Source: Escherichia phage vB_EcoS-G3B1
Reading direction: 5' to 3' (one strand)
Length of the DNA stretch: 51,299 bases
Sequence record: MZ234033.1
Part shown: in pieces, positions 1 through 41,342 of the stretch
Layout of the letters: each line of letters starts with the position of its first letter
How positions within the stretch are numbered: position 1 is the stretch's first letter
Notes under the pieces: model-generated
What the model was told of the DNA's origin: nothing
Database searches by the model: none
Seen by the model: the letters and a program-made list of their open reading frames with translations, nothing else
Program-made: the position numbers and the translations under genes

Positions 1-127
1 AAGGAGTCAATAAGCCACGATGAATTTATGGGGATCTTGTTGTTCGGTGACTCTTATCGTCTTGGTTACAAGATGGTTGAGCTTGTGGAAGAGGTCAAAT
101 TCTAAATAGCACTTTTTGTTAAAACTC
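1..127. repeat. Terminal 127-bp sequence identical to 51173-51299 (circular closure overlap)
   Basis: First 127 bases of the window are repeated exactly at its end; the ORF 51092..51277 reads through the junction. Confidence 0.9.
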
Positions 128-149
128 GAAAACGATAACCAGGCATAAT
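104..149 (+). promoter_or_regulatory. Cassette motif + CATAAT (copy also at 51276-51299)
   Basis: AAATAGCACTTTTTGTTAAAAC at 104-125 beginning on stop codon; CATAAT at 144-149. Confidence 0.55.
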
Positions 150-203
150 AAATCACATAGGGCGGCACTGCGTCGCCCACAAAACCAATCAGGAGAAAGC
201 ACC

Positions 204-1097
204 ATGTTAAAACTTGCTGACATTAAATTCCCGATCACCTTCGAATCTCGCGGCATTGGTCATTACATTTTTACCGATGAAAAAACATGCCATAAGGTTG
301 ATATGAATAGCGACAAACTAAGCCCATCAGACATGGAGATTGAACACTTTATTGATGCGCACAATACGCAGTACAACGCACTTAAAGACTATGGCTATGC
401 AATGCCAGGATATACCAGCTTCCACTACAAGCCATATAAAGGCCAGGTGTTGCCAGTGCGCTCACCGGAACGCGCAGAGATTCCGATGGTCGAGATGAAA
501 ACATGCGACTATAAAAAGCTGTGGTGCTTAAGTGTTGACAATATCAAGTATCCGATCACGTTCTACACGGTTGGTAATTCAACGATTCGATTCACATCGC
601 GCGACAATGGAGTTTATAGCGATGGTACGAAATCAGAGTTGAAAGTTGATTTCTTTGTTAACGGTCACAATAGATACAATCCGCACAACGAAGAGGATAA
701 AGTGTACTACGTGGAAGACATTACAAAACACTTGTTTGGAGAAACTCCATTCGGCGGCGGTAAGACGTCAATTCAAAAAATCATTGGCGATGAGATCCAC
801 AAAGCGGCTGCCGAAATGAAAGCGCCTGGAGGCTGGCGCATTGACAAGAGCGCATTTGCAAATCAAGAAATCGTAACGCAGGGCGCAATTGAAGATATGC
901 CAGTTGCAGCCACTCTAAAAGGAGTCCGGCTTGATGACGGCACCTGGTATGAAGTAACGGCTACGCCAAAGACGATCGAGATTCATGATGACGTTGTTAT
1001 CCTTCTGCTTCACTACGGCGGCTATAAAAACCGGACGATTGCAGGTGAGATCAGCATTAAGCGCGGAACGATGGTTAAGTGGAAGGTCAAAGTGTAA
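204..1097 (+). CDS. Hypothetical protein with internal duplication (297 aa)
   Basis: ATG preceded by AGGAG; two related segments (IKFPITFESRGIGHYIFTDEKT / IKYPITFYTVGNSTIRFTSRDNG); stop TAA embedded in cassette motif. Confidence 0.6.
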   Translation: MLKLADIKFPITFESRGIGHYIFTDEKTCHKVDMNSDKLSPSDMEIEHFIDAHNTQYNALKDYGYAMPGYTSFHYKPYKGQVLPVRSPERAEIPMVEMKTCDYKKLWCLSVDNIKYPITFYTVGNSTIRFTSRDNGVYSDGTKSELKVDFFVNGHNRYNPHNEEDKVYYVEDITKHLFGETPFGGGKTSIQKIIGDEIHKAAAEMKAPGGWRIDKSAFANQEIVTQGAIEDMPVAATLKGVRLDDGTWYEVTATPKTIEIHDDVVILLLHYGGYKNRTIAGEISIKRGTMVKWKVKV

Positions 1098-1140
1098 ATA
1101 GCACTTTTTGTTAAAACTCAAATGTGGGGCCAGGTATAAT
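1096..1140 (+). promoter_or_regulatory. Cassette motif + hairpin + TATAAT
   Basis: AAATAGCACTTTTTGTTAAAAC at 1096-1117; GGGCCAGGTATAATGGCCC with TATAAT at 1135-1140. Confidence 0.55.
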
Positions 1141-1170
1141 GGCCCTACTTTCAACGAAGGAGATAAAACG

Positions 1171-1392
1171 ATGTACATTAAAAAGAAGATGAAATGCGTT
1201 TCCGTTAACTATGCTTGCTCTGGCATGTTCAAGCCTGGCGAAATATATACGGCGCAAAAACTGAAATCATCAACCGGATCTTTTTACGTGAGCAATAGTA
1301 AGGGGCATCGCATGTTCCTGAACGGCGGCGAAGGCACTAAGGTTATGGCACACGCTATGGTAATGGCTGAATTTGAGGAAGTGAAACAATGA
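1171..1392 (+). CDS. Small hypothetical protein (73 aa), paralog of next gene
   Basis: RBS GGAGA upstream of ATG 1171; shares PGxxY...FLNGGEG...AEFEEVK pattern with 1389..1634. Confidence 0.55.
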   Translation: MYIKKKMKCVSVNYACSGMFKPGEIYTAQKLKSSTGSFYVSNSKGHRMFLNGGEGTKVMAHAMVMAEFEEVKQ

Positions 1393-1634
1393 TCATTGAA
1401 AACAATTTTCTTTGCGTTAAGAGCAATAGACCATTCTTCACGCCTGGCAAGGTGTACCAGGGCAAGAAGGACACAAGAGATGGTCACTCTTATCATGTTC
1501 ACTGCAACAACGGATACAAGTTTTACCTTAACGGCGAGAATGGAACAGAGATCGTTGCGTTTGAAAACGTAGTTGCCGAGTTTGAGCAGATTACAGACGC
1601 AGAATTTGAGGAAGTGAAAGATGAAAACAAATAA
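1389..1634 (+). CDS. Small hypothetical protein (81 aa), paralog of previous gene
   Basis: ATGA start/stop overlap with upstream gene; conserved YLNGENGTEIVAFENVVAEFE...EFEEVK. Confidence 0.55.
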   Translation: MIIENNFLCVKSNRPFFTPGKVYQGKKDTRDGHSYHVHCNNGYKFYLNGENGTEIVAFENVVAEFEQITDAEFEEVKDENK

Positions 1635-1842
1635 GCGCGTCAAGCACAGGTTTACTGATAACCACGGCGACGCGATTGATGTATACAAGTTTGGCGATCG
1701 AGTTTTTATTGATGGCACGTTTGAAGGTGGGCGTAGGCCGGATTTTAGGTCGATACTTACCGTTGACCAAGTGCGCAAGCTGGCAGATAAGTTAAATGAT
1801 CTGGCAGATGAAATAGAATACAAGCAAATCCATTTTAATTGA
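1621..1842 (+). CDS. Hypothetical protein (73 aa)
   Basis: ORF with overlapping start in early cassette array. Confidence 0.5.
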   Translation: MKTNKRVKHRFTDNHGDAIDVYKFGDRVFIDGTFEGGRRPDFRSILTVDQVRKLADKLNDLADEIEYKQIHFN

Positions 1843-1853
1843 TAGGTTTTATA

Positions 1854-2393
1854 ATGAAAAAATACACTTTCGAACTATGGGGCAAGAAGTACGAATTAAT
1901 AACCAGCAAGCCGATTGTTATCGTTGACCTGGACGGCACACTATCGGACGGATCGCATCGTTTGCATTTGCTGCCAACTGAAAACTTGCACCTTACGGAG
2001 TCGTGGAGCGAATTTAACAGGGCCGCCGCCGGAGATTCACCGATTAAAAGCACGATCGCGGTTATTAACGGTTTGTGGGTGTCGGGATTTGCCATCGTCA
2101 TCTTGACCGGACGCAGCGAAGAGGTGCGCTATGAAACCTGCAAATGGTTGAATGAGAGCGGCGTGAAGTTTGACGAAATCATCATGCGCCGCCAGGAGGA
2201 CAACCGAAAGGATACGGTTATTAAAGAAGAAGCCTTGCGCGCTATTGGCCTGGACAATATTGTTTGCGCCTTTGACGATTCGCCGAACGTTGTTAAGCAC
2301 TTCCGCAGCCTGGGAATCACAACCTATCAGGTCACGGAATACGACAAGCCGCACGCTCACCTGCAATCTCACGGCGTGGAGTGTTTAAAATGA
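1854..2393 (+). CDS. Polynucleotide 3'-phosphatase, HAD family (T4 Pnkp phosphatase-domain-like)
   Basis: DxDGT motif (VIVDLDGTL), TGRSEE and RRQEDNRKDTVIKEE segments, C-terminal AFDDSPNVV; resembles the phosphatase half of T4 Pnkp from memory. Confidence 0.7.
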   Translation: MKKYTFELWGKKYELITSKPIVIVDLDGTLSDGSHRLHLLPTENLHLTESWSEFNRAAAGDSPIKSTIAVINGLWVSGFAIVILTGRSEEVRYETCKWLNESGVKFDEIIMRRQEDNRKDTVIKEEALRAIGLDNIVCAFDDSPNVVKHFRSLGITTYQVTEYDKPHAHLQSHGVECLK

Positions 2394-2551
2394 CTTGGTT
2401 GCTTTTAATATTTGTCACAAGTTACAACTCCGCAGCTATTGAGTCGCAGGAGTTCCACGGCGAATCAAGATGCCAGGAAGCGCGAAAGCAAGTTATTCTC
2501 CACATGTCAGATAGTGGGAAGGATGTAACAGCGTTATGCGTTCGTAAATAG
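2390..2551 (+). CDS. Small hydrophobic-N-terminus peptide (53 aa)
   Basis: ATGA overlap with upstream stop; uninterrupted 54 codons translated by hand; stop TAG sits inside cassette motif; below the 60-aa ORF-track threshold. Confidence 0.3.
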   Translation: MTWLLLIFVTSYNSAAIESQEFHGESRCQEARKQVILHMSDSGKDVTALCVRK

Positions 2552-2596
2552 CACTTTTTGCAAAAAACAGATCATCGGGCTTGCTGTATAGTAAGC
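2546..2596 (+). promoter_or_regulatory. Cassette motif variant + hairpin with TATAGT
   Basis: AAATAGCACTTTTTGCAAAAAAC at 2546-2568; hairpin GGGCTTGCTGTATAGTAAGCCC. Confidence 0.5.
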
Positions 2597-2623
2597 CCAT
2601 CAACAACAAACGAGGATTAAATC

Positions 2624-2887
2624 ATGGCTAACAAGATCGAGTTTTTTAAAGCTGTAGACATTATCGACGGCGCGCCTAGCTTCTTTGCTATCCATTCTAT
2701 TGACGGCAAGGATATTGGGTACAACGTTATCCGTCGAGATGGAATATCAAAAATTAGTGACCTGGTAGGCCATATTGTGTCAAACGGGAAATGCGCATGG
2801 CCCGATTCGCCACGAGAGCCGCGCCGCCGCGACATGGTAGAGCCTGTTCTGCTTTACACTCTGGTAGTAGAGGGAGAAAATAAATGA
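2624..2887 (+). CDS. Hypothetical protein (87 aa)
   Basis: ATG 2624 preceded by GAGGA; downstream of cassette motif. Confidence 0.55.
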   Translation: MANKIEFFKAVDIIDGAPSFFAIHSIDGKDIGYNVIRRDGISKISDLVGHIVSNGKCAWPDSPREPRRRDMVEPVLLYTLVVEGENK

Positions 2888-3069
2888 TTTTGTTACTTGC
2901 TTTTTTGGTTGTTTTTCTTTACATTTCAGGCTTATTCACGTTCCGCGCGTTTGTGAAATATTCTGGCGCGACAAACAAGGACGATAAAATCGTTCTAGCT
3001 TTCTGGTTTGTTTGGGTGTGGTTAGCAATTTACGAGATCATCAGAGACAAACAGAAATTTGAGTGGTGA
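2884..3069 (+). CDS. Small membrane protein (61 aa, two predicted TM segments)
   Basis: ATGA overlap with upstream gene; hydrophobic stretches LLLAFLVVFLYISGLF and LAFWFVWVWLAIY. Confidence 0.5.
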   Translation: MILLLAFLVVFLYISGLFTFRAFVKYSGATNKDDKIVLAFWFVWVWLAIYEIIRDKQKFEW

Positions 3070-3125
3070 TTCTTGCTATGGCGCATTCATGCAGTGCGCC
3101 ATGTTGAGAAAACCTAAAGGGGGAA

Positions 3126-3278
3126 ATGATGCGTAACTTTGAAAAAATCATTACCAAAAAGAAGCGTCGCGGGTACGATGAGCATGTGGAGCTTGTGAAA
3201 AAGCAACGCAAGAAGCGCAACGAAGACAAGAAGCGCGGGAAAAAATTTAATGCGATTTTTCGCTATGGAGATCATTAA
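3126..3278 (+). CDS. Small highly basic protein (50 aa)
   Basis: Strong RBS AAAGGGGGAA before ATG; K/R-rich product (KKKRRG...KKQRKKRNEDKKRGKK); stop 3 nt before next ATG. Confidence 0.35.
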   Translation: MMRNFEKIITKKKRRGYDEHVELVKKQRKKRNEDKKRGKKFNAIFRYGDH

Positions 3279-3280
3279 TC

Positions 3281-3871
3281 ATGAAACGAGACATTATCAT
3301 CCTTAATGGGACGCCAGGTTGCGGGAAGGACACTATTGCAGCTTACCTAACGGGCCATAGTTACCCAGCGGTTAAGGCGTCATTCAAACAGCCGATGTTC
3401 GATATTGCGTTTTCCATGCTTGGCCCGACTCGATATGATGAGTTTATTGACCTGTACAACGACCGAGAGCAAAAAGAAAAGCCTCAAGTTATCTTAGGCG
3501 GCAAGTCACCTCGACAATTCATGATCTGGATTAGCGAGGATGTAATGAAGCCAGTCTTTGGGGATCACTATTTCGGGCGTCGAATGGTTGAAGAGATTAA
3601 CGAGATGTACCGAGATTTGGCGGTTGTGATCAGTGATGGCGGATTCCCCGAAGAAATCAAGCCGCTTGTTAAGGCAGGGCATGAAGTGCATATTTGCCGA
3701 TTGCATCGCGACGGCTTCACGTTTGCTGGCGATTCGAGAGACTACATTGACCTGAGCGGTTATCACTATCGAATCCATCACTATGACTTCCACTTGCAGG
3801 ACGGCAAGCCGGAACTGGCTGTAAACGAGATCGTCAATGCTGTCAAATGGAAGCACACACAGATTAAATAG
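3281..3871 (+). CDS. P-loop nucleotide or polynucleotide kinase (T4 gp1 dNMP-kinase-like Walker A)
   Basis: Walker A GTPGCGKDT near N-terminus; size 196 aa; adjacent to phosphatase gene cassette. Confidence 0.5.
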   Translation: MKRDIIILNGTPGCGKDTIAAYLTGHSYPAVKASFKQPMFDIAFSMLGPTRYDEFIDLYNDREQKEKPQVILGGKSPRQFMIWISEDVMKPVFGDHYFGRRMVEEINEMYRDLAVVISDGGFPEEIKPLVKAGHEVHICRLHRDGFTFAGDSRDYIDLSGYHYRIHHYDFHLQDGKPELAVNEIVNAVKWKHTQIK

Positions 3872-3911
3872 CACGAATTGCTAAACGCGGGGCGCAATGC
3901 CTCGCTATAAT
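3866..3911 (+). promoter_or_regulatory. Cassette motif variant + TATAAT
   Basis: AAATAGCACGAATTGCTAAAC at 3866-3886 on stop codon; TATAAT 3906-3911. Confidence 0.5.
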
Positions 3912-3941
3912 GCAAGCACCAATCAACGAGAGGAAACAATC

Positions 3942-4343
3942 ATGGTGGAGTTAAACGACATTCGCGTTGGAACAAAATTTCGCGTAACCTGGGCAGATAA
4001 ATATTGTGGCGTTAGCAAGGGCCAGGTTGTTGCGGTGGATAGTATTTATCGTGGTGTTAGTGGTGACTTTCGCCGTCCGCGCATCAATAATGGCTATATC
4101 ATTACTCGCCGTATTGGCTTTGATAATTATTGCGTAGTGGCGACTCAAGGAGTTTTGATTGAGCTTAAGAGAATCAGCGATCATCGCGGTCGTCATGTTA
4201 AGGCAATTAAAACACCATTTCAGCGAGCGAGATACGATGCGCGACGTATGCGCCGACTTGCGCGAAATGCGATCAAGTTCAAAAAGCCTGGCGATGATTT
4301 TTACGGCATGTATAAGGGGATTGCTCGCAATGCTGGGAAATAA
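3942..4343 (+). CDS. Hypothetical protein (133 aa)
   Basis: Downstream of cassette motif and TATAAT at 3906-3911; RBS GAGAGGAAA. Confidence 0.5.
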   Translation: MVELNDIRVGTKFRVTWADKYCGVSKGQVVAVDSIYRGVSGDFRRPRINNGYIITRRIGFDNYCVVATQGVLIELKRISDHRGRHVKAIKTPFQRARYDARRMRRLARNAIKFKKPGDDFYGMYKGIARNAGK

Positions 4344-4442
4344 CAATAACGCAACGAATCCTAAGCCACCTTTTGATTTTCATTCCGCAATGATTGCGGT
4401 ATTATCAATGCTACTTTTTCTTTATAGCATGAGGGCGCTACT

Positions 4443-4691
4443 ATGGTTTTTAACGCATTGAAACGACTGTTTAAGCCGGAATACCGGATCGTATTTTGCC
4501 GCGACTGTTCTACTTATCATGTGCAGCGACGCAGCTTAGGCGGCAATTGGCACTATGTTACAGACGACTTTTTCGGCATCATTGCCACTGAATTTAAGTA
4601 TTACAGCGATGCTTATATGTACGTCAAGAAGCGCCACCGCTTACGCAAGTGTCGTTTTTCCGTGCTGATTCACGTTAATGATTGTTACTGA
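4443..4691 (+). CDS. Hypothetical Cys-containing protein (82 aa)
   Basis: ORF in early array; FCRDCSTYH segment. Confidence 0.4.
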   Translation: MVFNALKRLFKPEYRIVFCRDCSTYHVQRRSLGGNWHYVTDDFFGIIATEFKYYSDAYMYVKKRHRLRKCRFSVLIHVNDCY

Positions 4692-4698
4692 GGTGAAA

Positions 4699-4881
4699 AT
4701 GAAAACTGGTGTTATTATTCTTTTTCTGATCCTTTTAGGCAGCCACTTAACCATTAACTATGAGGGCATTATGGCCTTTTGGGGCAACTTGATGATGTTT
4801 GCTGCTGGTTCAATTGCTGGCTACTCTGACGGGAAAAAGGATGGTGTGCGCAAGATGCTGATGGGGCTTAAACAAAAATAA
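4699..4881 (+). CDS. Small membrane protein (60 aa)
   Basis: RBS GAGGTGAAA before ATG 4699; hydrophobic VIILFLILLGSHL and LMMFAAGSIAGY. Confidence 0.5.
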   Translation: MKTGVIILFLILLGSHLTINYEGIMAFWGNLMMFAAGSIAGYSDGKKDGVRKMLMGLKQK

Positions 4882-4892
4882 GGGGATATGAA

Positions 4893-5183
4893 ATGGCAAA
4901 CAAAACTTACCGCAAACTACTGGTTAACGCTTTTGAAAACATCGCGCAGTGTAACAAGTGGAACGACTCTAAACACTCGCCAATCACAATGAAGCGCGCC
5001 GGATTCAAAAATACTCGTTCATGGGCGCGAGCTTTCGCAGCTTGCTATATGCCGGATGGCGGACTAGGGGTGATGAACGATTTTTTGATCAACATGATAG
5101 AGGAAGCGGCGCGAGAGGATCGACCGCTGACACAGCGAGATTTTGACGGCTTCGCGCGCGATGAGCTTTACTATCTGAGTTAA
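4893..5183 (+). CDS. Hypothetical protein (96 aa)
   Basis: RBS AGGGGA; stop TAA embedded in cassette motif at 5182. Confidence 0.55.
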   Translation: MANKTYRKLLVNAFENIAQCNKWNDSKHSPITMKRAGFKNTRSWARAFAACYMPDGGLGVMNDFLINMIEEAAREDRPLTQRDFDGFARDELYYLS

Positions 5184-5232
5184 TAGCACTTTTTGTTAAA
5201 ACTTCCGCAAGGGCATTTGGTAAAGTGCCCTT
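5182..5232 (+). promoter_or_regulatory. Cassette motif + hairpin
   Basis: AATAGCACTTTTTGTTAAAAC at 5182-5202; hairpin AAGGGCATTTGGTAAAGTGCCCTT. Confidence 0.55.
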
Positions 5233-5258
5233 ATTGAAGCGAAACAGAGGAAAGCGCA

Positions 5259-5471
5259 ATGAAAATCAAAATCACCAAAATCGACACTATCAACGGCGAC
5301 GGATCAATCACTCTTGAGCAATGTGGCTTGGTTGTTGGTGATGTGCTGGAAGTTGACGGACATTTCAGCGACGGATCTTATTGTGTTATTGCGCCGCGCA
5401 ACAGCGAGTTTATCAAGGCTGGCGACAATATTAGTGTTAACCATGACGAATGCGAGGTAGTAGAAGAATGA
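5259..5471 (+). CDS. Small acidic protein (70 aa)
   Basis: Downstream of cassette motif; D/E-rich, ends ECEVVEE. Confidence 0.55.
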   Translation: MKIKITKIDTINGDGSITLEQCGLVVGDVLEVDGHFSDGSYCVIAPRNSEFIKAGDNISVNHDECEVVEE

Positions 5472-5701
5472 TCACGATTAACCTTTCAGAGAAGCAAGCA
5501 TATCAAGTGATGCGCTACATTTCTGGCTTTGGTATGGAAGGCGCTATGGGTGAAGTTGCGGATCAGATTTGCCGTCAACTTACACCAGCACCAACGCGAG
5601 CGGCAGAAACTGCCGCATGGCGCAACGAGGCTGGATACATCCAGAAAGCTATTGAAGACTGGAAGCGCATAAACGAGACTATGGAGGAATCAGGTTTATG
5701 A
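5468..5701 (+). CDS. Hypothetical protein (77 aa)
   Basis: ATGA overlap; RBS GAGGTAG. Confidence 0.5.
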   Translation: MITINLSEKQAYQVMRYISGFGMEGAMGEVADQICRQLTPAPTRAAETAAWRNEAGYIQKAIEDWKRINETMEESGL

Positions 5702-6012
5702 TTTATATTCACTACTACCAAATCGGAACTAACGAGAACAAGAAAGAGCATCGTTTCATCCATGATGATTTGGACAAGGCAAAGGCACAGCAACAGGTTT
5801 TAGGCGGTGTCATTCAGGCTTTTGAGCCTGTAGAAGATATTGAGTACCGCGAGCATTTAAAAGATGTTGTTATTGATGAGATCTCTTGCTTGATTGATGA
5901 TATGACAAATCACGGCCCTGGTTCCCCGTGGGAAGATGCAGGATCTGTAACGTGGGATAAGGCCAAAGTTAAGACGCTAAACAACTTTCGAGAGATTCTC
6001 GACGGTTTTTAA
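5698..6012 (+). CDS. Acidic hypothetical protein (104 aa)
   Basis: ATGA overlap with upstream gene. Confidence 0.5.
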   Translation: MIYIHYYQIGTNENKKEHRFIHDDLDKAKAQQQVLGGVIQAFEPVEDIEYREHLKDVVIDEISCLIDDMTNHGPGSPWEDAGSVTWDKAKVKTLNNFREILDGF

Positions 6013-6082
6013 TTAAAAACGCATAGCCGTTAGAGCGCCTAAATCGCATTCTAACGAGCTATTTTTCTGGTAAGGTGATTTA

Positions 6083-6211
6083 ATGGATGAGTACAAACAA
6101 CCCTCGCAATGGTGCAAAGAGAAGCAGGAGGAAGCACTTGAGCGCGGAGATGTAGAAGAAGCTATGAACTATTTCAAACTTGCGGAAGAATGGAAGGGGA
6201 GAGGATACTGA
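6083..6211 (+). CDS. Small hypothetical protein (42 aa)
   Basis: RBS AAGGTGA before ATG 6083; stop overlaps next start. Confidence 0.3.
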   Translation: MDEYKQPSQWCKEKQEEALERGDVEEAMNYFKLAEEWKGRGY

Positions 6212-6441
6212 TGTTCGGCATGAACGAGGCGCAATTCAACGCAGCTAAACGCCAGGCTAAAAAGTGCGGCGAGGCAATGAAAGCGGATGTGGAAAAGCGC
6301 GGGAAGTATGTTGATGAAGTAATGAAGGGCATCATTGCAGAACACTACCAGCCAATCGCGCCAATGTTGACGATCACTCAATTCATTTGGCTATGTGGTT
6401 ACTTGCGCGGACGTTGGGGGAACGCTTTCGACAGGGAATGA
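6211..6441 (+). CDS. Hypothetical protein (76 aa)
   Basis: ATG 6211 after GGAGAGGA; ORF-track entry 6190..6441 trimmed to first ATG. Confidence 0.45.
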   Translation: MFGMNEAQFNAAKRQAKKCGEAMKADVEKRGKYVDEVMKGIIAEHYQPIAPMLTITQFIWLCGYLRGRWGNAFDRE

Positions 6442-6602
6442 TTGACAACTCTTTCCTGATTGGTTAGCATGGCGTCGTTTACATAAGAGCGGCTTTGTCC
6501 GAACGCGTGACGCGATAGTCACACAACAACGGCGATATGCAGGAGGTTTTTGCAATGCAAAATAATCCGTAAGACGTATCGCCTTTTTAATGGAGATCCA
6601 AA

Positions 6603-6836
6603 ATGATTAAATACAAATTAACCGTTTCTTTCCGTGATACCGTTATTCATCCTTTCTACAATAGCTTTGTTAACAGCTTTACAGTAGAAGCGACAAATGA
6701 TCAGCTTGGCGGTGACGAAACTTGCATTTCTATCGGCAATGTTGCTTATCCGATTCACAACATTACCAGCATTAAGCGTGAGGTTGTCGCTGATGAATTA
6801 CAAAGTGAAGATGACGATCCGGCGAATGGGGCGTAA
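6603..6836 (+). CDS. Acidic hypothetical protein (77 aa)
   Basis: RBS TGGAGA before ATG 6603. Confidence 0.5.
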   Translation: MIKYKLTVSFRDTVIHPFYNSFVNSFTVEATNDQLGGDETCISIGNVAYPIHNITSIKREVVADELQSEDDDPANGA

Positions 6837-6974
6837 CTGCCAATCATGCAAACAGGAATATGAATGCGTAGTTGATGCTCTTGATGAACTGGAAGCAGTA
6901 GCAAAAGCAAAAGAGCAATCGGGCGCTAATCCTGAAACACATCAATTTTCAATTAATCTTGTGAGGGCTTTACA

Positions 6975-7199
6975 ATGATCGCATTATCTTTCTGCATTGG
7001 TTTTATCATGGCTATCATTATCTTTTCCGTTGTCATGCGCTTTGCTTATAAGTTCGTGATTAATAAAGGTTGGTACGCTTCTGCCATCTGGAGCGAAAAA
7101 CAAAAGAAATGGCTTGTACGTGGTCAATACCTGATGATCGGCAGCAAGATCCTAAATTCCATTCGAGCCAAAGATGGAAAAGTAAAATATACAGCTTAA
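6975..7199 (+). CDS. Small membrane protein (74 aa)
   Basis: N-terminal TM segment IALSFCIGFIMAIIIFSVVM; followed by intrinsic terminator. Confidence 0.5.
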   Translation: MIALSFCIGFIMAIIIFSVVMRFAYKFVINKGWYASAIWSEKQKKWLVRGQYLMIGSKILNSIRAKDGKVKYTA

Positions 7200-7203
7200 A
7201 AAT

Positions 7204-7228
7204 TACCCGCCGCACGGCGGGTTTTTTA
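7204..7228 (+). terminator. Rho-independent terminator ending early + block
   Basis: GC hairpin CCCGCCGCACGGCGGG followed by TTTTTT. Confidence 0.6.
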
Positions 7229-7277
7229 TTGCCCGTTGTCTGGTATAATCAGGCATCTAACCAAAGGAGGATTAATA

Positions 7278-7805
7278 ATGGCTAAAAATGTTGAGCCTGC
7301 TGTAAAGGCATTAAATTTCAAAGAGTTATACAATAAAACTTATGGCGATATTGTCACGCTAAACAACCGCCACAAGTACACGCCGGAACAGGTTTTTGAT
7401 ATGGCGATCCGCTATTTCACTTGGGCCGAAGAGAATCACATCCAGGCGGCTGAAACTGCTTCCTTTCAGGGTGACGTGTACGAGAGCAGAGTTTACAAGC
7501 CTCGCGTTTTCACGGTTAACGGATTCAGCTTGTATCTCGGCGTGACTGAGGCTGCCGTAAGCAAATGGCGTAAAGAGCCTGGATTCTGCGATGTGATGGA
7601 GTTTGTTGATAAAGTAATTTACGAGCAAAAATTCCAGCTTGCGGCAAATAACATGATTAATGCTGGATTTATCGGTAAAGAGATCGGCGTAGAGAAGCCA
7701 GCAACAGTGAGCGTTGAAGCTAGCGCGGCAGCTAATGCAAGCATTGACGCAGTAACTGCCGATGAGGTGAAAGAGGCTGTTATTGATATTCTGGAGCAAC
7801 TTTAA
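7278..7805 (+). CDS. Terminase small subunit (putative)
   Basis: RBS AAAGGAGG before ATG 7278; immediately upstream of and overlapping terminase large subunit. Confidence 0.5.
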   Translation: MAKNVEPAVKALNFKELYNKTYGDIVTLNNRHKYTPEQVFDMAIRYFTWAEENHIQAAETASFQGDVYESRVYKPRVFTVNGFSLYLGVTEAAVSKWRKEPGFCDVMEFVDKVIYEQKFQLAANNMINAGFIGKEIGVEKPATVSVEASAAANASIDAVTADEVKEAVIDILEQL

Positions 7806-9373
7806 TGATCATATGGGAAGATTTGACGGCGGCGCAAAAGCGAGCCATTAAAGAAATCAGTGAGCATTCATTCGAAAAGATGATCAGAATCTGGTTTCAG
7901 TTATTGCAGGGGCAAAAATTCCAGAGCAACTGGCATTTTAGCTTATTGTGCAGTGAGGTAGAGAAGATCATCAATGGAGAGTCGCAGAATGTGATTTTCA
8001 ACATTACGCCAGGTAGCGGTAAGACTGAGATTTTCTCGATCCACATGTCACCCTACGCGTCATTGAAAAGTCGGAAGGTGAGAAACCTTAACCTTTCGTT
8101 TAGTGATGGACTTGTCCAGCAAAACAGCAACAGGATAAAGGAGATTATCGGTTCTCCTGAGTGGCAAGAGCTATGGCCAGGAAAACTGGCAAAGGCGAGC
8201 GCAAAAGATCTCATAGTTACGGATGGCGGCAAGGTTAAATTGCAAGTTAACTCACGTTCTATTGGCGGACAGGTAACAGGTTTGCGTGGCGGCTATATGG
8301 ATGATGGTTTTACTGGTATGCTGGTTCTGGACGATCCAGACAAGCCTGATGATATGCTTTCTAAGGTCAAGCGTGAGGCGATCCACATGAGGTTAAAAAA
8401 CACAGTGCGATCTCGTCGAATGAAAGACACCACGCCAATTGTTATGGTGCAACAGCGACTACACGTTAATGATTCCACCTGGTTCATGCTTAATGGCGGG
8501 ATGGGCGGTATTGAGTTTAAAGTTGTGAGCATTCCTGCGCTGGTTACGAAAGAATACCGCGAAACGCTTCCTGATTGGTTGAAGCCTGAATTTGATCGTG
8601 ATGTGTTGTCAAGTAAGCCAGTGATGATAGATGGAGTTGCTCATTATTCATTTTGGCCTGCAAAGGAAAGCGCGGAGGAATTGCTTGCATTGCGCAATGC
8701 AGATCCTTACACGTTCGCCAGCCAATACCAACAACAACCCATCGCGCTTGGCGGCAACGTGTTTAAAACAGAGTGGTTCCAGTATTACGGCAGCGGCGAA
8801 AAATGCGCACTTCCTAAACCGGATCGCTTTGAATACACATTTATTACTGGAGATACAGCACAGAAGGCCGGAGAGCTTAACGACTATTCAGTTTTTTGTT
8901 ATTGGGGGATGTATAAAAATCGCGTTTACTTCATTGATGGCATTCGCGGCAAGTGGGAAGCGCCAGATCTTGAATTAAATTTTATTGCCTTCGTTAATCA
9001 GTGCTGGAAGCGCAATAAGGAGTGTGGCAGCTTGCGACGTATTCACATTGAGGATAAGGCCAGCGGCACGGGTTTGATTCAGGGGGCCAAAAAGAAGATC
9101 CCGATTGATATAAATCCCGTTCAGCGAAGCAATGACAAGGTAACGCGAGCAATGGACGCCGCGCCAGTAATGAGGGCAGGACGTGTGGCACTGCCAGAAA
9201 GTCATCCCATGTTACCTGAGATACTGGCAGAGGTTGCAGCGTTCACTTTTGACGATTCTCATCCCCATGATGATATTGTCGATAATATAGTTGATGCTGT
9301 TAACGTCGAAATGAACTTGGCTGATGATCCTGTAGCAAGGATGAAAAAGCTGGCTGGTCTACGCAATAAATAG
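7805..9373 (+). CDS. Terminase large subunit
   Basis: Walker A TPGSGKT, 522 aa, followed by portal gene. Confidence 0.8.
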   Translation: MIIWEDLTAAQKRAIKEISEHSFEKMIRIWFQLLQGQKFQSNWHFSLLCSEVEKIINGESQNVIFNITPGSGKTEIFSIHMSPYASLKSRKVRNLNLSFSDGLVQQNSNRIKEIIGSPEWQELWPGKLAKASAKDLIVTDGGKVKLQVNSRSIGGQVTGLRGGYMDDGFTGMLVLDDPDKPDDMLSKVKREAIHMRLKNTVRSRRMKDTTPIVMVQQRLHVNDSTWFMLNGGMGGIEFKVVSIPALVTKEYRETLPDWLKPEFDRDVLSSKPVMIDGVAHYSFWPAKESAEELLALRNADPYTFASQYQQQPIALGGNVFKTEWFQYYGSGEKCALPKPDRFEYTFITGDTAQKAGELNDYSVFCYWGMYKNRVYFIDGIRGKWEAPDLELNFIAFVNQCWKRNKECGSLRRIHIEDKASGTGLIQGAKKKIPIDINPVQRSNDKVTRAMDAAPVMRAGRVALPESHPMLPEILAEVAAFTFDDSHPHDDIVDNIVDAVNVEMNLADDPVARMKKLAGLRNK

Positions 9374-39900: not shown

Positions 39901-40132
39901 ACAAGGTAGAGAGGCGGTATGGAATCACGCTAAAGAATGCGGAATAGCCGACGATATAAAGAAGATCGCGCAATACTTTGATATTGCAGATGTGAGCATA
40001 ATTAGCGGCGATAAGATGACTTTCCTCAAGGAAAGGCCGCGAAAAATGGTAAGAGTTCCAGCAGTTCCAACAAAAATTGATTTCAAAGAGGCAATGGCTA
40101 AAATCCGAGAGCCTCGCAAATATTATAAATGA
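39890..40132 (+). CDS. Hypothetical protein (80 aa)
   Basis: First ATG in ORF overlapping upstream stop. Confidence 0.4.
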   Translation: MKVEQGREAVWNHAKECGIADDIKKIAQYFDIADVSIISGDKMTFLKERPRKMVRVPAVPTKIDFKEAMAKIREPRKYYK

Positions 40133-40226
40133 GGATAGTTATCATGTGGCGCTTGTTTGTTCTACCGTTACCCGTTATCATCGCTGTTACAGTTATGTAC
40201 CATATAGTGATGAGATAGGTGGCAGA

Positions 40227-41342
40227 ATGAAAAATGTAAAAATTACAGATGAGCAATTCAAGATCGAACGGGCGGCGGGTAAGACATATAAACAGATCGC
40301 TCAAGAGTACGGAATGAATGTGAGAAGCGTCGAGCGTCGCGCGGCGCGACTTGCAAAGCAAGGCCAGGTATCCACCATTGGAGCGCCTGGTTTTGGCGTT
40401 CATGGTGAGTCAGTAATGACTGACAAAGAAGGCAACATAATCCTAAAGTGGACTAAAACCAGCAAGGATAAAGAGCAATTAGAAGCATTAATGCGCGCAG
40501 CAATGGAGGCATTTAGCGAGGAAGTGCCGCGATTAGATCCGGTTCCATTACAGGAGCGCGACTATAACGAAACGCTTTCCTTGTATCCGATCTTTGACAT
40601 GCACTTAGGCGCTATGGCCCATAAGCACGAATGCGGCGAAAATTGGGATACTGCCACGGCAGAGCGCGTTATGAATAACTTTATCGACTATGCTTTAATG
40701 TGCGCACCGGATAGCGAAAAGGCTGTCATCCTGATTGGTGGCGATATGCTGCATAGCGACGGCCTGGAGGCGGTTACACCTGCAAGCGGTCACGTACTGG
40801 ATCAAGATAGTCGATATGCAAAATTGGTTTACGTTGCCATCCGTGCAATGCGACGAGCAATCAATAAAATGTTGTTAAAGCATAAACATGTTGAAGTCCA
40901 GATCGTAGAGGGCAATCATGACCAATCAGGAATGATTTGGCTGCGCGCAGCAATGGCGGCAGCATATGAAAACGAGCCGCGCGTTTACGTTGATGTTTCC
41001 CCTCGCGTTGTGCACCACACGCAATACGGAAAAACTTTCCTTGCGTACCATCACGGGCACACAGTGCGTAAACCGGAGACTTTGCTAATGATGTGCGCGT
41101 CAGATTGGCGGGAGGACTTCGGAAACTCAAAAACGATGTATGCGCACGTAGGGCACTGGCATCACCAGACCGTAACGGAAACGTCGCTTGGCATCGTGGA
41201 AGTACATAGCACCCTGGCGGCAAAAGACGCATACGCAGCGCGCGGTGGCTGGCGATCTCGACGCCGTGCGGCGGTTATCATTTACGACAAAGAGCATGGA
41301 GAGGTTGGGCGATTTGTTCACTATCCAGAAATGATGAATTGA
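40227..41342 (+). CDS. HTH-domain fused to calcineurin-like metallophosphoesterase
   Basis: N-terminal HTH (TYKQIAQEYGMNVRSVERRAARL); phosphoesterase motifs GDMLHSDG, GNHD, GHWHH; RBS AGGTGG before ATG 40227. Confidence 0.6.
   Translation: MKNVKITDEQFKIERAAGKTYKQIAQEYGMNVRSVERRAARLAKQGQVSTIGAPGFGVHGESVMTDKEGNIILKWTKTSKDKEQLEALMRAAMEAFSEEVPRLDPVPLQERDYNETLSLYPIFDMHLGAMAHKHECGENWDTATAERVMNNFIDYALMCAPDSEKAVILIGGDMLHSDGLEAVTPASGHVLDQDSRYAKLVYVAIRAMRRAINKMLLKHKHVEVQIVEGNHDQSGMIWLRAAMAAAYENEPRVYVDVSPRVVHHTQYGKTFLAYHHGHTVRKPETLLMMCASDWREDFGNSKTMYAHVGHWHHQTVTETSLGIVEVHSTLAAKDAYAARGGWRSRRRAAVIIYDKEHGEVGRFVHYPEMMN

What the first reader, a model, noticed from the sequence alone, without database searches (positions are those of the whole stretch)
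1854..3871. Split polynucleotide end-healing pair: stand-alone Pnkp-like 3'-phosphatase and separate P-loop kinase, no ligase seen
In T4 the kinase and phosphatase are fused in Pnkp and act with RNA ligase to repair tRNA cut by host anticodon nucleases. Here a HAD phosphatase with clear Pnkp-like motifs (1854..2393) and a P-loop kinase (3281..3871) are separate early cassette genes, and no ligase-like gene is recognisable. Either the kinase is a dNMP kinase unrelated to end healing, or this is a ligase-independent counter-defence or DNA-end processing system.
Basis: partly seen in the sequence, partly recalled or inferred. Interest (0 to 1): 0.55.

Follow-up and report, generated by a model that had tools for sequence, protein, structure and literature searches.

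The report
Linked 3'-phosphatase and dNMP kinase genes
A T1-like coliphage carries a T4-Pnkp-type 3'-phosphatase and, 0.9 kb downstream, a T4-gp1-type deoxynucleotide kinase; the two are ordinary, already-annotated phage genes, but gene order and rare natural fusions show they work together, most likely in recycling host DNA into phage DNA precursors rather than in RNA repair.

Summary
Both ORFs are real. The window is a T1-like phage (Drexlerviridae, Warwickvirus), 99% identical over the searched 3-kb stretch (window 1500-4500) to phages tinuso and AV105, where these genes are already annotated as "polynucleotide kinase/phosphatase" and "dNMP kinase".

ORF 1854-2393 is a stand-alone HAD phosphatase of the T4 Pnkp type (PF25109, E 5e-21). 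Its catalytic residues are conserved and its best structural matches are the T4 Pnkp phosphatase domain.

"Unrelated" is not:
- The phosphatase lies upstream of the kinase on the same strand in 69 of 80 related loci.
- The two genes overlap in Webervirus and in Autographiviridae.
- Single-ORF phosphatase-kinase fusions exist (403 and 461 aa).

Most likely the pair is a nucleotide-salvage or DNA-precursor module in a phage that degrades host DNA and has no polymerase, RNR or ThyA. A non-orthologous end-healing enzyme remains possible but less likely. Interest is modest.

The parts
1854..2393 (+). Stand-alone HAD (DxDxT) phosphatase of the T4 Pnkp 3'-phosphatase type, 179 aa. Catalytic residues: D25 and D27 (motif I), T85 (motif II), K119 (motif III), D141/D142 (motif IV). 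It has an N-terminal beta-hairpin and a family-specific conserved insert (residues 30-62) between motifs I and II.
   Evidence: PF25109 E 5.2e-21; PF03767 (class B acid phosphatase) also above its cut-off. phrog_415 E 6e-65. PDB sequence hits are only Pnkp1 (4xrp) and T4 Pnkp. hhalign to T4 Pnkp 157-298. Foldseek top hits 5uj0/1ltq/2ia5/4xrp. AF2 model pLDDT 75.8, with residues 30-62 below 50.
3281..3871 (+). P-loop kinase of the T4 gp1 deoxynucleoside-monophosphate kinase family, 196 aa. Walker A is G10-x4-G15-K16-D17-T18. Family-invariant residues include K36, R78, E86, E125, D151 and R153.
2381..3278 (+). Four small intervening ORFs (2381-2551, 2624-2887, 2884-3069, 3126-3278) of unknown function. 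They are lineage-specific insertions between the two enzyme genes and are probably not part of the enzymatic pair.
   Evidence: ORF list. Only function-unknown PHROGs match. In other lineages the two enzyme genes are directly adjacent or overlapping.
40077..41342 (+). Possible third partner, located elsewhere in this genome: an HTH plus metallophosphoesterase-type 'DNA repair exonuclease'. It carries the motifs DxH, GD, GNHD and GHxH. Its homologue sits immediately upstream of the phosphatase-kinase pair in Webervirus and other phages.
   Evidence: phrog_704 'DNA repair exonuclease' E 8e-149. Invariant D174/H176, G222/D223, G279-N280-H281-D282 and G359-H360-x-H362 in alignment A5. Gene order in KP36, L054 and Tapenade. 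PMC13164509 reports PNK and dNMP kinase as the genes most often following this exonuclease. The link to the pair is inferred from synteny only.

Best explanation
The two genes encode a functionally coupled pair that acts on nucleotides or DNA breakdown products, not an RNA-repair system.

The kinase is a gp1-type dNMP kinase. It converts dNMPs released from the degraded host chromosome into dNDPs, and host Ndk then makes dNTPs for the host replisome that copies the phage genome.

The phosphatase is a Pnkp-type aspartyl-phosphate (DxDxT) 3'-phosphatase. It removes 3'-phosphates from DNA fragments, oligonucleotides or 3'-(deoxy)nucleotides, so that breakdown products can be processed to 5'-dNMPs. 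Alternatively it trims nucleotide pools as a nucleotidase.

What is shown: family membership, catalytic residues, fold, synteny and the existence of fusions. What is inferred: the substrates, the salvage role, and any physical complex between the two proteins.
For: Kinase is gp1-type.
- It falls in the same PHROG as T4 gp1.
- hhalign to gp1 extends well beyond the P-loop.
- gp1 residues R68, R132, M135, W152, D175, E181, R197 and G225 map to family-conserved R62, R78, M81, F98, D119, E125, R140 and G175. Residue roles are taken from PMC10653934 Table 2.
- A gp1-like dNMPK supplies essential TMP kinase activity in vivo in P. putida (PMC10653934).

Phosphatase is Pnkp-type. T4 Pnkp phosphatase itself works on the mononucleotide 3'-dTMP as well as on RNA ends (PMC3592404).

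The two are coupled.
- The phosphatase lies upstream on the same strand in 69 of 80 IMG/VR loci that hold the kinase, and within 200 nt in 31 of them.
- The genes overlap by 4 nt in KP36 and 8 nt in Aeromonas phage phiAS7, an Autographiviridae member.
- Fusions exist: P0258 (403 aa, three contigs from at least two samples) and P0265 (461 aa). Each has HAD_PNKP at the N-terminus and the kinase at the C-terminus. P0258 is 49% and 43% identical to the two window proteins.

The context is nucleotide metabolism.
- In Vequintavirinae the kinase overlaps an NT5C-like HAD nucleotidase next to ThyA and RNR.
- In Chaseviridae it sits next to dUTPase.
- T1 and TLS degrade host DNA and reuse the nucleotides, and have no polymerase gene (PMC11447400).
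- The window encodes no ligase; no polymerase, RNR or ThyA is annotated in the 99%-related AV105 genome.
Against: No biochemistry exists for either protein in any Drexlerviridae member that I could find.

Two gp1 dNMP-phosphate ligands are not conserved: K37 maps to F40 (an invariant K36 lies nearby) and R177 maps to G121.

E. coli DNases that degrade DNA generally leave 5'-phosphates (established knowledge). A need for a 3'-phosphatase in DNA salvage is therefore not obvious.

The kinase also sits directly next to a DNA ligase in SP6-like and Chaseviridae phages, which fits an end-repair reading equally well.

Most syntenic loci are related Drexlerviridae, so much of the 69/80 figure reflects common descent.
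Confidence: 0.55

Rival explanations
1. Non-orthologous end-healing enzyme. The gp1-like kinase has been recruited as a polynucleotide 5'-kinase and works with the 3'-phosphatase to convert 5'-OH/3'-P breaks, mainly in DNA, into ligatable ends. Sealing would be by a phage DNA ligase where one is present and by host LigA in T1-like phages. This would be a Pnkp analogue with inverted domain order and a different kinase lineage.
For: The kinase is coupled and sometimes fused to a bona fide Pnkp-type phosphatase. Erwinia phage Tapenade has phosphatase, kinase and DNA ligase in consecutive, nearly overlapping genes. Kinase-ligase adjacency is also seen in L039 and in Fougasse. An Mre11/SbcD-like metallophosphoesterase 'DNA repair exonuclease' sits upstream of the pair in several lineages. 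Some kinase homologues carry an SSB-like DDIPW tail.
Confidence: 0.17
2. Two independent enzymes. The kinase is a plain dNMP kinase. The phosphatase separately repairs or processes RNA or DNA 3'-phosphate or 2',3'-cyclic phosphate ends, for example as counter-defence. Their proximity would reflect only inheritance of a common gene block.
For: In this window the genes are 888 nt apart with four unrelated small ORFs between them. About 10 of 80 kinase loci lack the phosphatase within 8 kb. The phosphatase family is much wider than the kinase family: 3557 versus 1486 phage records. In Dickeya phage BF25/12 no kinase is annotated next to the phosphatase; the following gene is a 128-aa hypothetical protein that I did not test.
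Against: Single-ORF fusions occur in independent samples. Overlapping stop and start codons are seen in two phage families. The pair has moved as a unit between genome positions within Drexlerviridae (PMC13164509). A different HAD nucleotidase pairs with the same kinase family in Vequintavirinae.
Confidence: 0.18
3. T4-like tRNA repair without a ligase. The pair would heal tRNA cut by anticodon nucleases and a host enzyme would seal the break.
For: The phosphatase is homologous to the T4 Pnkp and Pnkp1 RNA-repair phosphatases.
Against: There is no RNA ligase or any other ligase in the window. The kinase is not Pnk-type. E. coli RtcB joins 3'-P or 2',3'>P ends to 5'-OH ends directly, so removing the 3'-phosphate would destroy its substrate (established knowledge). 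There is no PADLOC or defence-related signal, and the genomic context is DNA and nucleotide metabolism.
Confidence: 0.05

Closest known systems
Bacteriophage T4 polynucleotide kinase-phosphatase (Pnkp, pseT; PDB 1LTQ, 2IA5, 5UJ0)
   Same: The window phosphatase is homologous to the Pnkp C-terminal DxDxT domain. It has the same nucleophile and general acid (D25/D27 = D165/D167), the same phosphate contacts (T85 = S211, K119 = K258) and the same Mg ligand (D142 = D278). T4 Pnkp gives the best structural matches (residue roles from PMC3592404).
   Different: The window protein is stand-alone. It has an extra N-terminal hairpin and a conserved insert about 15 residues longer after motif I. Its partner kinase belongs to a different lineage (gp1-like, not Pnk-like) and lies downstream rather than fused upstream. 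No RNA ligase partner is present.
Bacteriophage T4 gp1 deoxynucleoside monophosphate kinase (PDB 1DEK/1DEL)
   Different: The window kinase is 45 residues shorter and lacks the gp1 insert around residues 97-129. K37 and R177 are not conserved in place. Sequence identity is only 15-17%. Substrate range is unknown.
Pseudomonas putida PP_1964 dNMPK (PMC10653934)
   Same: It is a gp1-like dNMP kinase on a mobile element, with demonstrated in vivo TMP kinase function.
   Different: It is not reported to be paired with a HAD phosphatase.
Vequintavirinae kinase plus NT5C-like HAD nucleotidase pair (phages Seu621, PMBT16)
   Same: The kinase is from the same family (phrog_139). It overlaps a HAD phosphatase gene inside a ThyA/RNR nucleotide-metabolism cluster.
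   Different: The HAD belongs to a different subfamily (phrog_420, with a PF06941 NT5C match in PMBT16), and the gene order is kinase then HAD.
Natural HAD_PNKP-kinase fusion proteins P0258 and P0265 (uncultured phage contigs)
   Same: Both domains belong to the same subfamilies as the window proteins (49% and 43% identity for P0258) and stand in the same order as the window genes.
   Different: They are one polypeptide with a 60-110 residue linker. In P0258 the motif III Lys is replaced by Ser.

Membership tests
Pnkp-type HAD 3'-phosphatase domain (Pfam PF25109 HAD_PNKP) | Profile score above the curated gathering threshold | tested here: met
   75.7 bits against a 27.6-bit cut-off, E 5.2e-21, covering profile positions 3-140 of 143.
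Pnkp-type HAD 3'-phosphatase domain (Pfam PF25109 HAD_PNKP) | Motif I DxDxT with an Asp nucleophile and an Asp general acid/base | tested here: met
   D25-L-D27-G-T29 aligns to T4 D165-V-D167-G-T. D25, D27 and T29 are invariant in 19 homologues. Roles from PMC3592404.
Pnkp-type HAD 3'-phosphatase domain (Pfam PF25109 HAD_PNKP) | Motif II Ser/Thr, motif III Lys and motif IV Asp-Asp | tested here: met
   T85 = S211, K119 = K258 and D141/D142 = D277/D278. K119 is at least 90% but not 100% conserved in the family.
Pnkp-type HAD 3'-phosphatase domain (Pfam PF25109 HAD_PNKP) | Fold closest to known Pnkp phosphatase domains | tested here: met
   Foldseek ranks 1-19 are T4 Pnkp and Pnkp1 chains (E 8e-8 to 3e-6). 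The model has medium confidence: pLDDT 75.8, with residues 30-62 unreliable.
Pnkp-type HAD 3'-phosphatase domain (Pfam PF25109 HAD_PNKP) | Hydrolysis of polynucleotide 3'-phosphate ends | not testable with these tools
   This needs an enzyme assay. Homology cannot separate polynucleotide from mononucleotide substrates, because T4 Pnkp uses both.
Bifunctional T4-type Pnkp end-healing system | Pnk-type P-loop 5'-kinase domain | tested here: not met
Bifunctional T4-type Pnkp end-healing system | Kinase and phosphatase in one polypeptide, kinase at the N-terminus | tested here: not met
   They are separate genes 888 nt apart, with the phosphatase first. The related fusions have the phosphatase at the N-terminus.
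Bifunctional T4-type Pnkp end-healing system | Cognate RNA ligase partner | tested here: not met
   No ligase was found in the window by annotation transfer, tblastn or Pfam/PHROG scans.
gp1-type deoxynucleoside monophosphate kinase (PHROG 139; PDB 1DEK) | Profile match shared with the characterised T4 gp1 | tested here: met
   Window kinase: E 3.5e-50 at profile positions 81-261. T4 gp1: E 1.8e-65 at positions 83-261. The gp1 sequence was verified as 100% identical to X03016.
gp1-type deoxynucleoside monophosphate kinase (PHROG 139; PDB 1DEK) | Walker A variant G-x4-G-K-D-T | tested here: met
   G15, K16 and D17 are invariant and T18 is present in 35 of 37 sequences, aligned to gp1 G13-K14-D15-T16.
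gp1-type deoxynucleoside monophosphate kinase (PHROG 139; PDB 1DEK) | Fold closest to 1DEK | tested here: met
gp1-type deoxynucleoside monophosphate kinase (PHROG 139; PDB 1DEK) | dNMP phosphate- and base-binding residues of gp1 | tested here: inconclusive
   Conserved: R68 = R62, R132 = R78, M135 = M81, D175 = D119, E181 = E125. Not conserved: K37 maps to F40, R177 maps to G121, and the 204-209 'locking' loop aligns ambiguously (roles). This rests on a sequence alignment only, not a structural superposition.
gp1-type deoxynucleoside monophosphate kinase (PHROG 139; PDB 1DEK) | ATP-dependent phosphorylation of dNMPs | not testable with these tools
   This needs an enzyme assay or complementation of E. 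coli tmk/cmk/gmk mutants.

The most novel reading that the evidence does not exclude
The HAD_PNKP phosphatase plus gp1-like kinase, separate here and fused in P0258/P0265, would be a second, independently evolved kinase-phosphatase enzyme with inverted domain order. It would act on nucleic-acid ends or on 3'-phosphorylated nucleotides. One version is a DNA end-healing unit working with an Mre11-like exonuclease and a phage or host DNA ligase. Another is a dedicated pathway converting 3'-phosphorylated breakdown products of the host chromosome into dNDPs.
Probability: 0.2. Interest if true: 0.6.

Novelty: new member of a known kind. Interest (0 to 1): 0.3.

Why it matters
T1-like phages are known to destroy the host chromosome and rebuild their DNA from it. 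The genes responsible have not been identified (PMC11447400).

The coupled phosphatase-kinase pair, often preceded by a metallophosphoesterase exonuclease, is a concrete and testable candidate for the downstream part of that pathway.

There is also a practical annotation point. The widespread label "polynucleotide kinase" on the phosphatase gene is wrong as to kinase activity, and the presence of this gene should not be read as evidence for tRNA repair or anti-anticodon-nuclease capacity in Drexlerviridae.

If the minority reading were true, it would add a new architecture to the Pnkp-like end-healing enzymes.

Tried and rejected
1. Sequence and profile search of the kinase against PDB chains gave only P-loop matches and did not find 1DEK. 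Fold comparison was needed.
2. Pfam and NCBIfam give nothing specific for the kinase.
3. I looked for the characterised T5 dNMP kinase in T5 coordinates 36-86 kb. It is not annotated there and local tblastn found nothing, so I dropped this. The rest of T5 was not searched.
4. I tested whether the T1p16-like exonuclease family (A5) is homologous to the Autographiviridae metallophosphoesterase (A6) that occupies the same position. hhalign gave probability 0.5%, so this is not supported. They share only superfamily signature motifs. The A5 profile against PDB hit only the HTH.
5. A PADLOC scan of both proteins and of the fusion gave no defence-system match.
6. Literature searches for experimental work on these genes in T1-like phages, or for a counter-defence role, found only annotation-level mentions. 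The retron Eco2 paper mentions both terms only incidentally.
7. The promoter and terminator scan of 1-8000 was no richer than shuffled controls, so no operon boundaries are claimed apart from the strong hairpin at 7205-7222.
8. The 236-264-aa gene calls for phosphatase homologues turned out to be C-terminal extensions, not an upstream start.
Full report
**Identity of the window.** Megablast of window 1500-4500 finds 138 phage records. The best are Escherichia phages tinuso, AV105 and Tuinin at 99% identity over the whole stretch. AV105 is classified as Drexlerviridae, Tempevirinae, Warwickvirus, that is, a T1-like siphovirus. In these records the two flagged genes already carry the names [quoted passage not shown] and "dNMP kinase / ATP-binding protein". 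Two papers on T1-like phages list both genes under nucleotide metabolism (PMC11447400; PMC13164509). At the annotation level the finding is therefore not new.

**Observation check.**
- Both ORFs are present as described.
- The phosphatase ORF (1854-2393, 179 aa) starts 12 nt after the preceding ORF.
- The kinase ORF (3281-3871, 196 aa) has a GGAG Shine-Dalgarno sequence and starts 3 nt after a 50-aa ORF.
- Four small ORFs of unknown function lie between them.
- No ligase is detectable. AV105 has none annotated. tblastn with two phage DNA ligases gives only E > 0.7. Pfam and PHROG scans of the larger ORFs identify helicases, primase, an exonuclease VIII-like protein, Erf, methyltransferases and a metallophosphoesterase-type exonuclease, but no ligase or polymerase.
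- There are no tRNA genes.

**The phosphatase.**
- It passes the Pfam threshold for HAD_PNKP (75.7 bits, E 5e-21). It also passes the threshold for class B acid phosphatase PF03767.
- Its only sequence relatives among solved structures are the phosphatase domains of Capnocytophaga Pnkp1 and T4 Pnkp.
- hhalign of a 19-sequence alignment against T4 Pnkp covers residues 157-298 with probability 96.6. It pairs D25/D27 with the nucleophile D165 and the general acid D167, T85 with S211, K119 with K258, and D141/D142 with D277/D278. The roles of these T4 residues are taken from PMC3592404.
- The AF2 model (pLDDT 75.8) finds T4 Pnkp and Pnkp1 as its top 19 Foldseek hits.
- Residues 30-62 are modelled poorly. 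This segment is strongly conserved (HRLHLLPTxDLHLTESWSEFNxAA) and is longer than the equivalent T4 segment. I could not tell what it does to substrate access.
- T4 Pnkp dephosphorylates 3'-dTMP as well as RNA 3'-P and 2',3'>P ends. Homology therefore does not say whether this enzyme prefers nucleotides or polynucleotide ends.

**The kinase.**
- Pfam, NCBIfam and PDB sequence searches see only the P-loop.
- PHROG 139 ("deoxynucleoside monophosphate kinase") matches at E 3.5e-50. T4 gp1, whose sequence I verified as 100% identical to GenBank X03016, matches the same profile region at E 1.8e-65. T4 Pnkp matches PHROGs 505 and 415 but never 139.
- hhalign of the 30-sequence kinase alignment against gp1 extends over 74 columns. 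Against T4 Pnkp it covers only the 25-column P-loop.
- In a MAFFT alignment of 37 family members with gp1, these gp1 residues are conserved: the GKDT Walker motif, R68, R132, M135, W152 (as Phe), D175, E181, R197 and G225. K37 and R177 are not conserved. Residue roles come from Table 2 of PMC10653934. That paper also shows that a gp1-like dNMPK supplies essential TMP kinase activity in vivo.
- I conclude that the protein is a gp1-family dNMP kinase. Its substrate range is unknown.

- Among 80 IMG/VR loci that encode a relative of the kinase, 69 have the phosphatase upstream on the same strand within 2.2 kb. In 31 of these the tblastn matches are less than 200 nt apart. About 10 have no phosphatase within 8 kb.
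- In Klebsiella phage KP36 (Webervirus) the genes overlap by 4 nt. In Aeromonas phage phiAS7 (Autographiviridae) they overlap by 8 nt.
- In Erwinia phage Tapenade (Autographiviridae) the order is phosphatase, kinase, DNA ligase.
- An exhaustive profile search of 1.84 billion representative proteins found two proteins in which a HAD_PNKP domain is fused N-terminally to this kinase: P0258 (403 aa) and P0265 (461 aa). P0258 is encoded as one ORF on three contigs from at least two samples, in a phage-like context. It is 49% and 43% identical to the two window proteins.
- Within Drexlerviridae the pair occupies different genome positions. In KP36 it lies next to the lysis cassette. Here it lies in the small-gene cluster before the terminase genes. 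So the pair moves as a unit (PMC13164509).

**Context of the kinase family elsewhere.**
- In Vequintavirinae the kinase overlaps a different HAD protein, which matches the NT5C deoxynucleotidase family in PMBT16. Thymidylate synthase and ribonucleotide reductase follow.
- In Chaseviridae it lies between a DNA ligase and dUTPase.
- In an SP6-like contig it overlaps a DNA ligase, with no phosphatase present.
- In Kuravirus it carries an N-terminal extension and precedes a 5'-3' exonuclease.
- In several lineages the gene upstream of the pair is a metallophosphoesterase. In Drexlerviridae this is the phrog_704 "DNA repair exonuclease". Its copy in this window is at 40077-41342 and carries the signatures DxH, GD, GNHD and GHxH. 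In Autographiviridae a different metallophosphoesterase family holds that position. Homology between the two families is not supported by hhalign.

**Interpretation.**
- The best-supported reading is a coupled nucleotide or DNA-precursor module. T1-like phages degrade the host chromosome and reuse its nucleotides (PMC11447400), and neither polymerase, RNR, ThyA nor ligase is found in the window or annotated in the near-identical AV105 genome.
- A broad dNMP kinase is the obvious first step from dNMP to dNTP.
- The 3'-phosphatase would clear 3'-phosphates from breakdown products, or act as a nucleotidase. This parallels the kinase-NT5C pairing in Vequintavirinae.
- The substrates and the salvage role are inferred, not shown.
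The fusions, the adjacent ligases and the upstream Mre11-like exonuclease fit this reading. The fold, the profile and the conserved nucleotide-binding residues argue against it.
- A T4-style tRNA repair function is unlikely. There is no RNA ligase, the kinase is not Pnk-type, and removing 3'-phosphates would work against the host RtcB ligase (established knowledge).

**Verdict.** Both are new members of known and widely annotated families. The modestly interesting points are the Rosetta-stone fusions and the cross-family synteny, which make a joint function testable, and the systematic mislabelling of the phosphatase as a "polynucleotide kinase". Interest is 0.3.

Noticed in passing
Kinase homologues P0060, P0093, P0094, P0098, P0104, P0105, P0120 (alignment A1); absent from window 3281-3871: Several kinase homologues from other T1-like phages carry a C-terminal extension ending in D-D-I-P-W. 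This closely resembles the E. coli SSB C-terminal tip DDDIPF (recalled from memory). It suggests recruitment to SSB-binding replication or repair proteins.
   Followed up: no
Phosphatase homologues P0121, P0136, P0154; window 2381-2551: Many phosphatase homologues are 206-264 aa because of C-terminal additions. One is a roughly 57-aa small domain. The other is a CxxC...CxxC zinc-ribbon-like insert (KPKIECEGEHCFSVVDGKCLRCG). In the window the phosphatase ends at 2393, and an overlapping 56-aa ORF with a hydrophobic N-terminus follows instead.
   Followed up: partly
window 40077-41342 (+): The T1p16-like 421-aa protein (phrog_704 'DNA repair exonuclease') combines an N-terminal LuxR/sigma-70-region-4-like HTH with a domain carrying all the metallophosphoesterase signature motifs. 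Pfam does not detect this domain in the window copy. Its homologues sit directly upstream of the phosphatase-kinase pair in KP36, L054 and Tapenade.
   Followed up: partly
L088 4387-6533 (Erwinia phage Tapenade); L039 7998-9523; L086 2716-4531: Tapenade has HAD phosphatase, kinase and ATP-dependent DNA ligase as three consecutive, nearly overlapping genes. An SP6-like contig has kinase-ligase without the phosphatase. Chaseviridae has ligase-kinase-dUTPase.
   Followed up: partly
L087 3498-4698; L085 3498-4699 (Vequintavirinae): A kinase of the same family overlaps a different HAD protein (phrog_420, NT5C-like). ThyA and class Ia RNR follow. This is an analogous kinase-nucleotidase pairing.
   Followed up: partly
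window 1108-1392 and 1389-1634 (+); also 204-1097: Two adjacent small ORFs look like paralogues by eye. They share the pattern F.PG.[IV]Y ... [FY]LNG..GT ... AEFE. The 297-aa ORF at 204-1097 matches its PHROG in two stretches, which suggests an internal repeat. The C-terminal add-on of some phosphatase homologues resembles this small-domain family.
   Followed up: no
Literature lead (PMC13092281), not in the window: The validated E. coli defence system DS-9 consists of a metallophosphatase plus a HAD phosphatase of unknown substrate. The same two enzyme classes are adjacent in the phage modules seen here (metallophosphoesterase then HAD then kinase). Homology between the phage and DS-9 proteins was not tested.
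   Followed up: no
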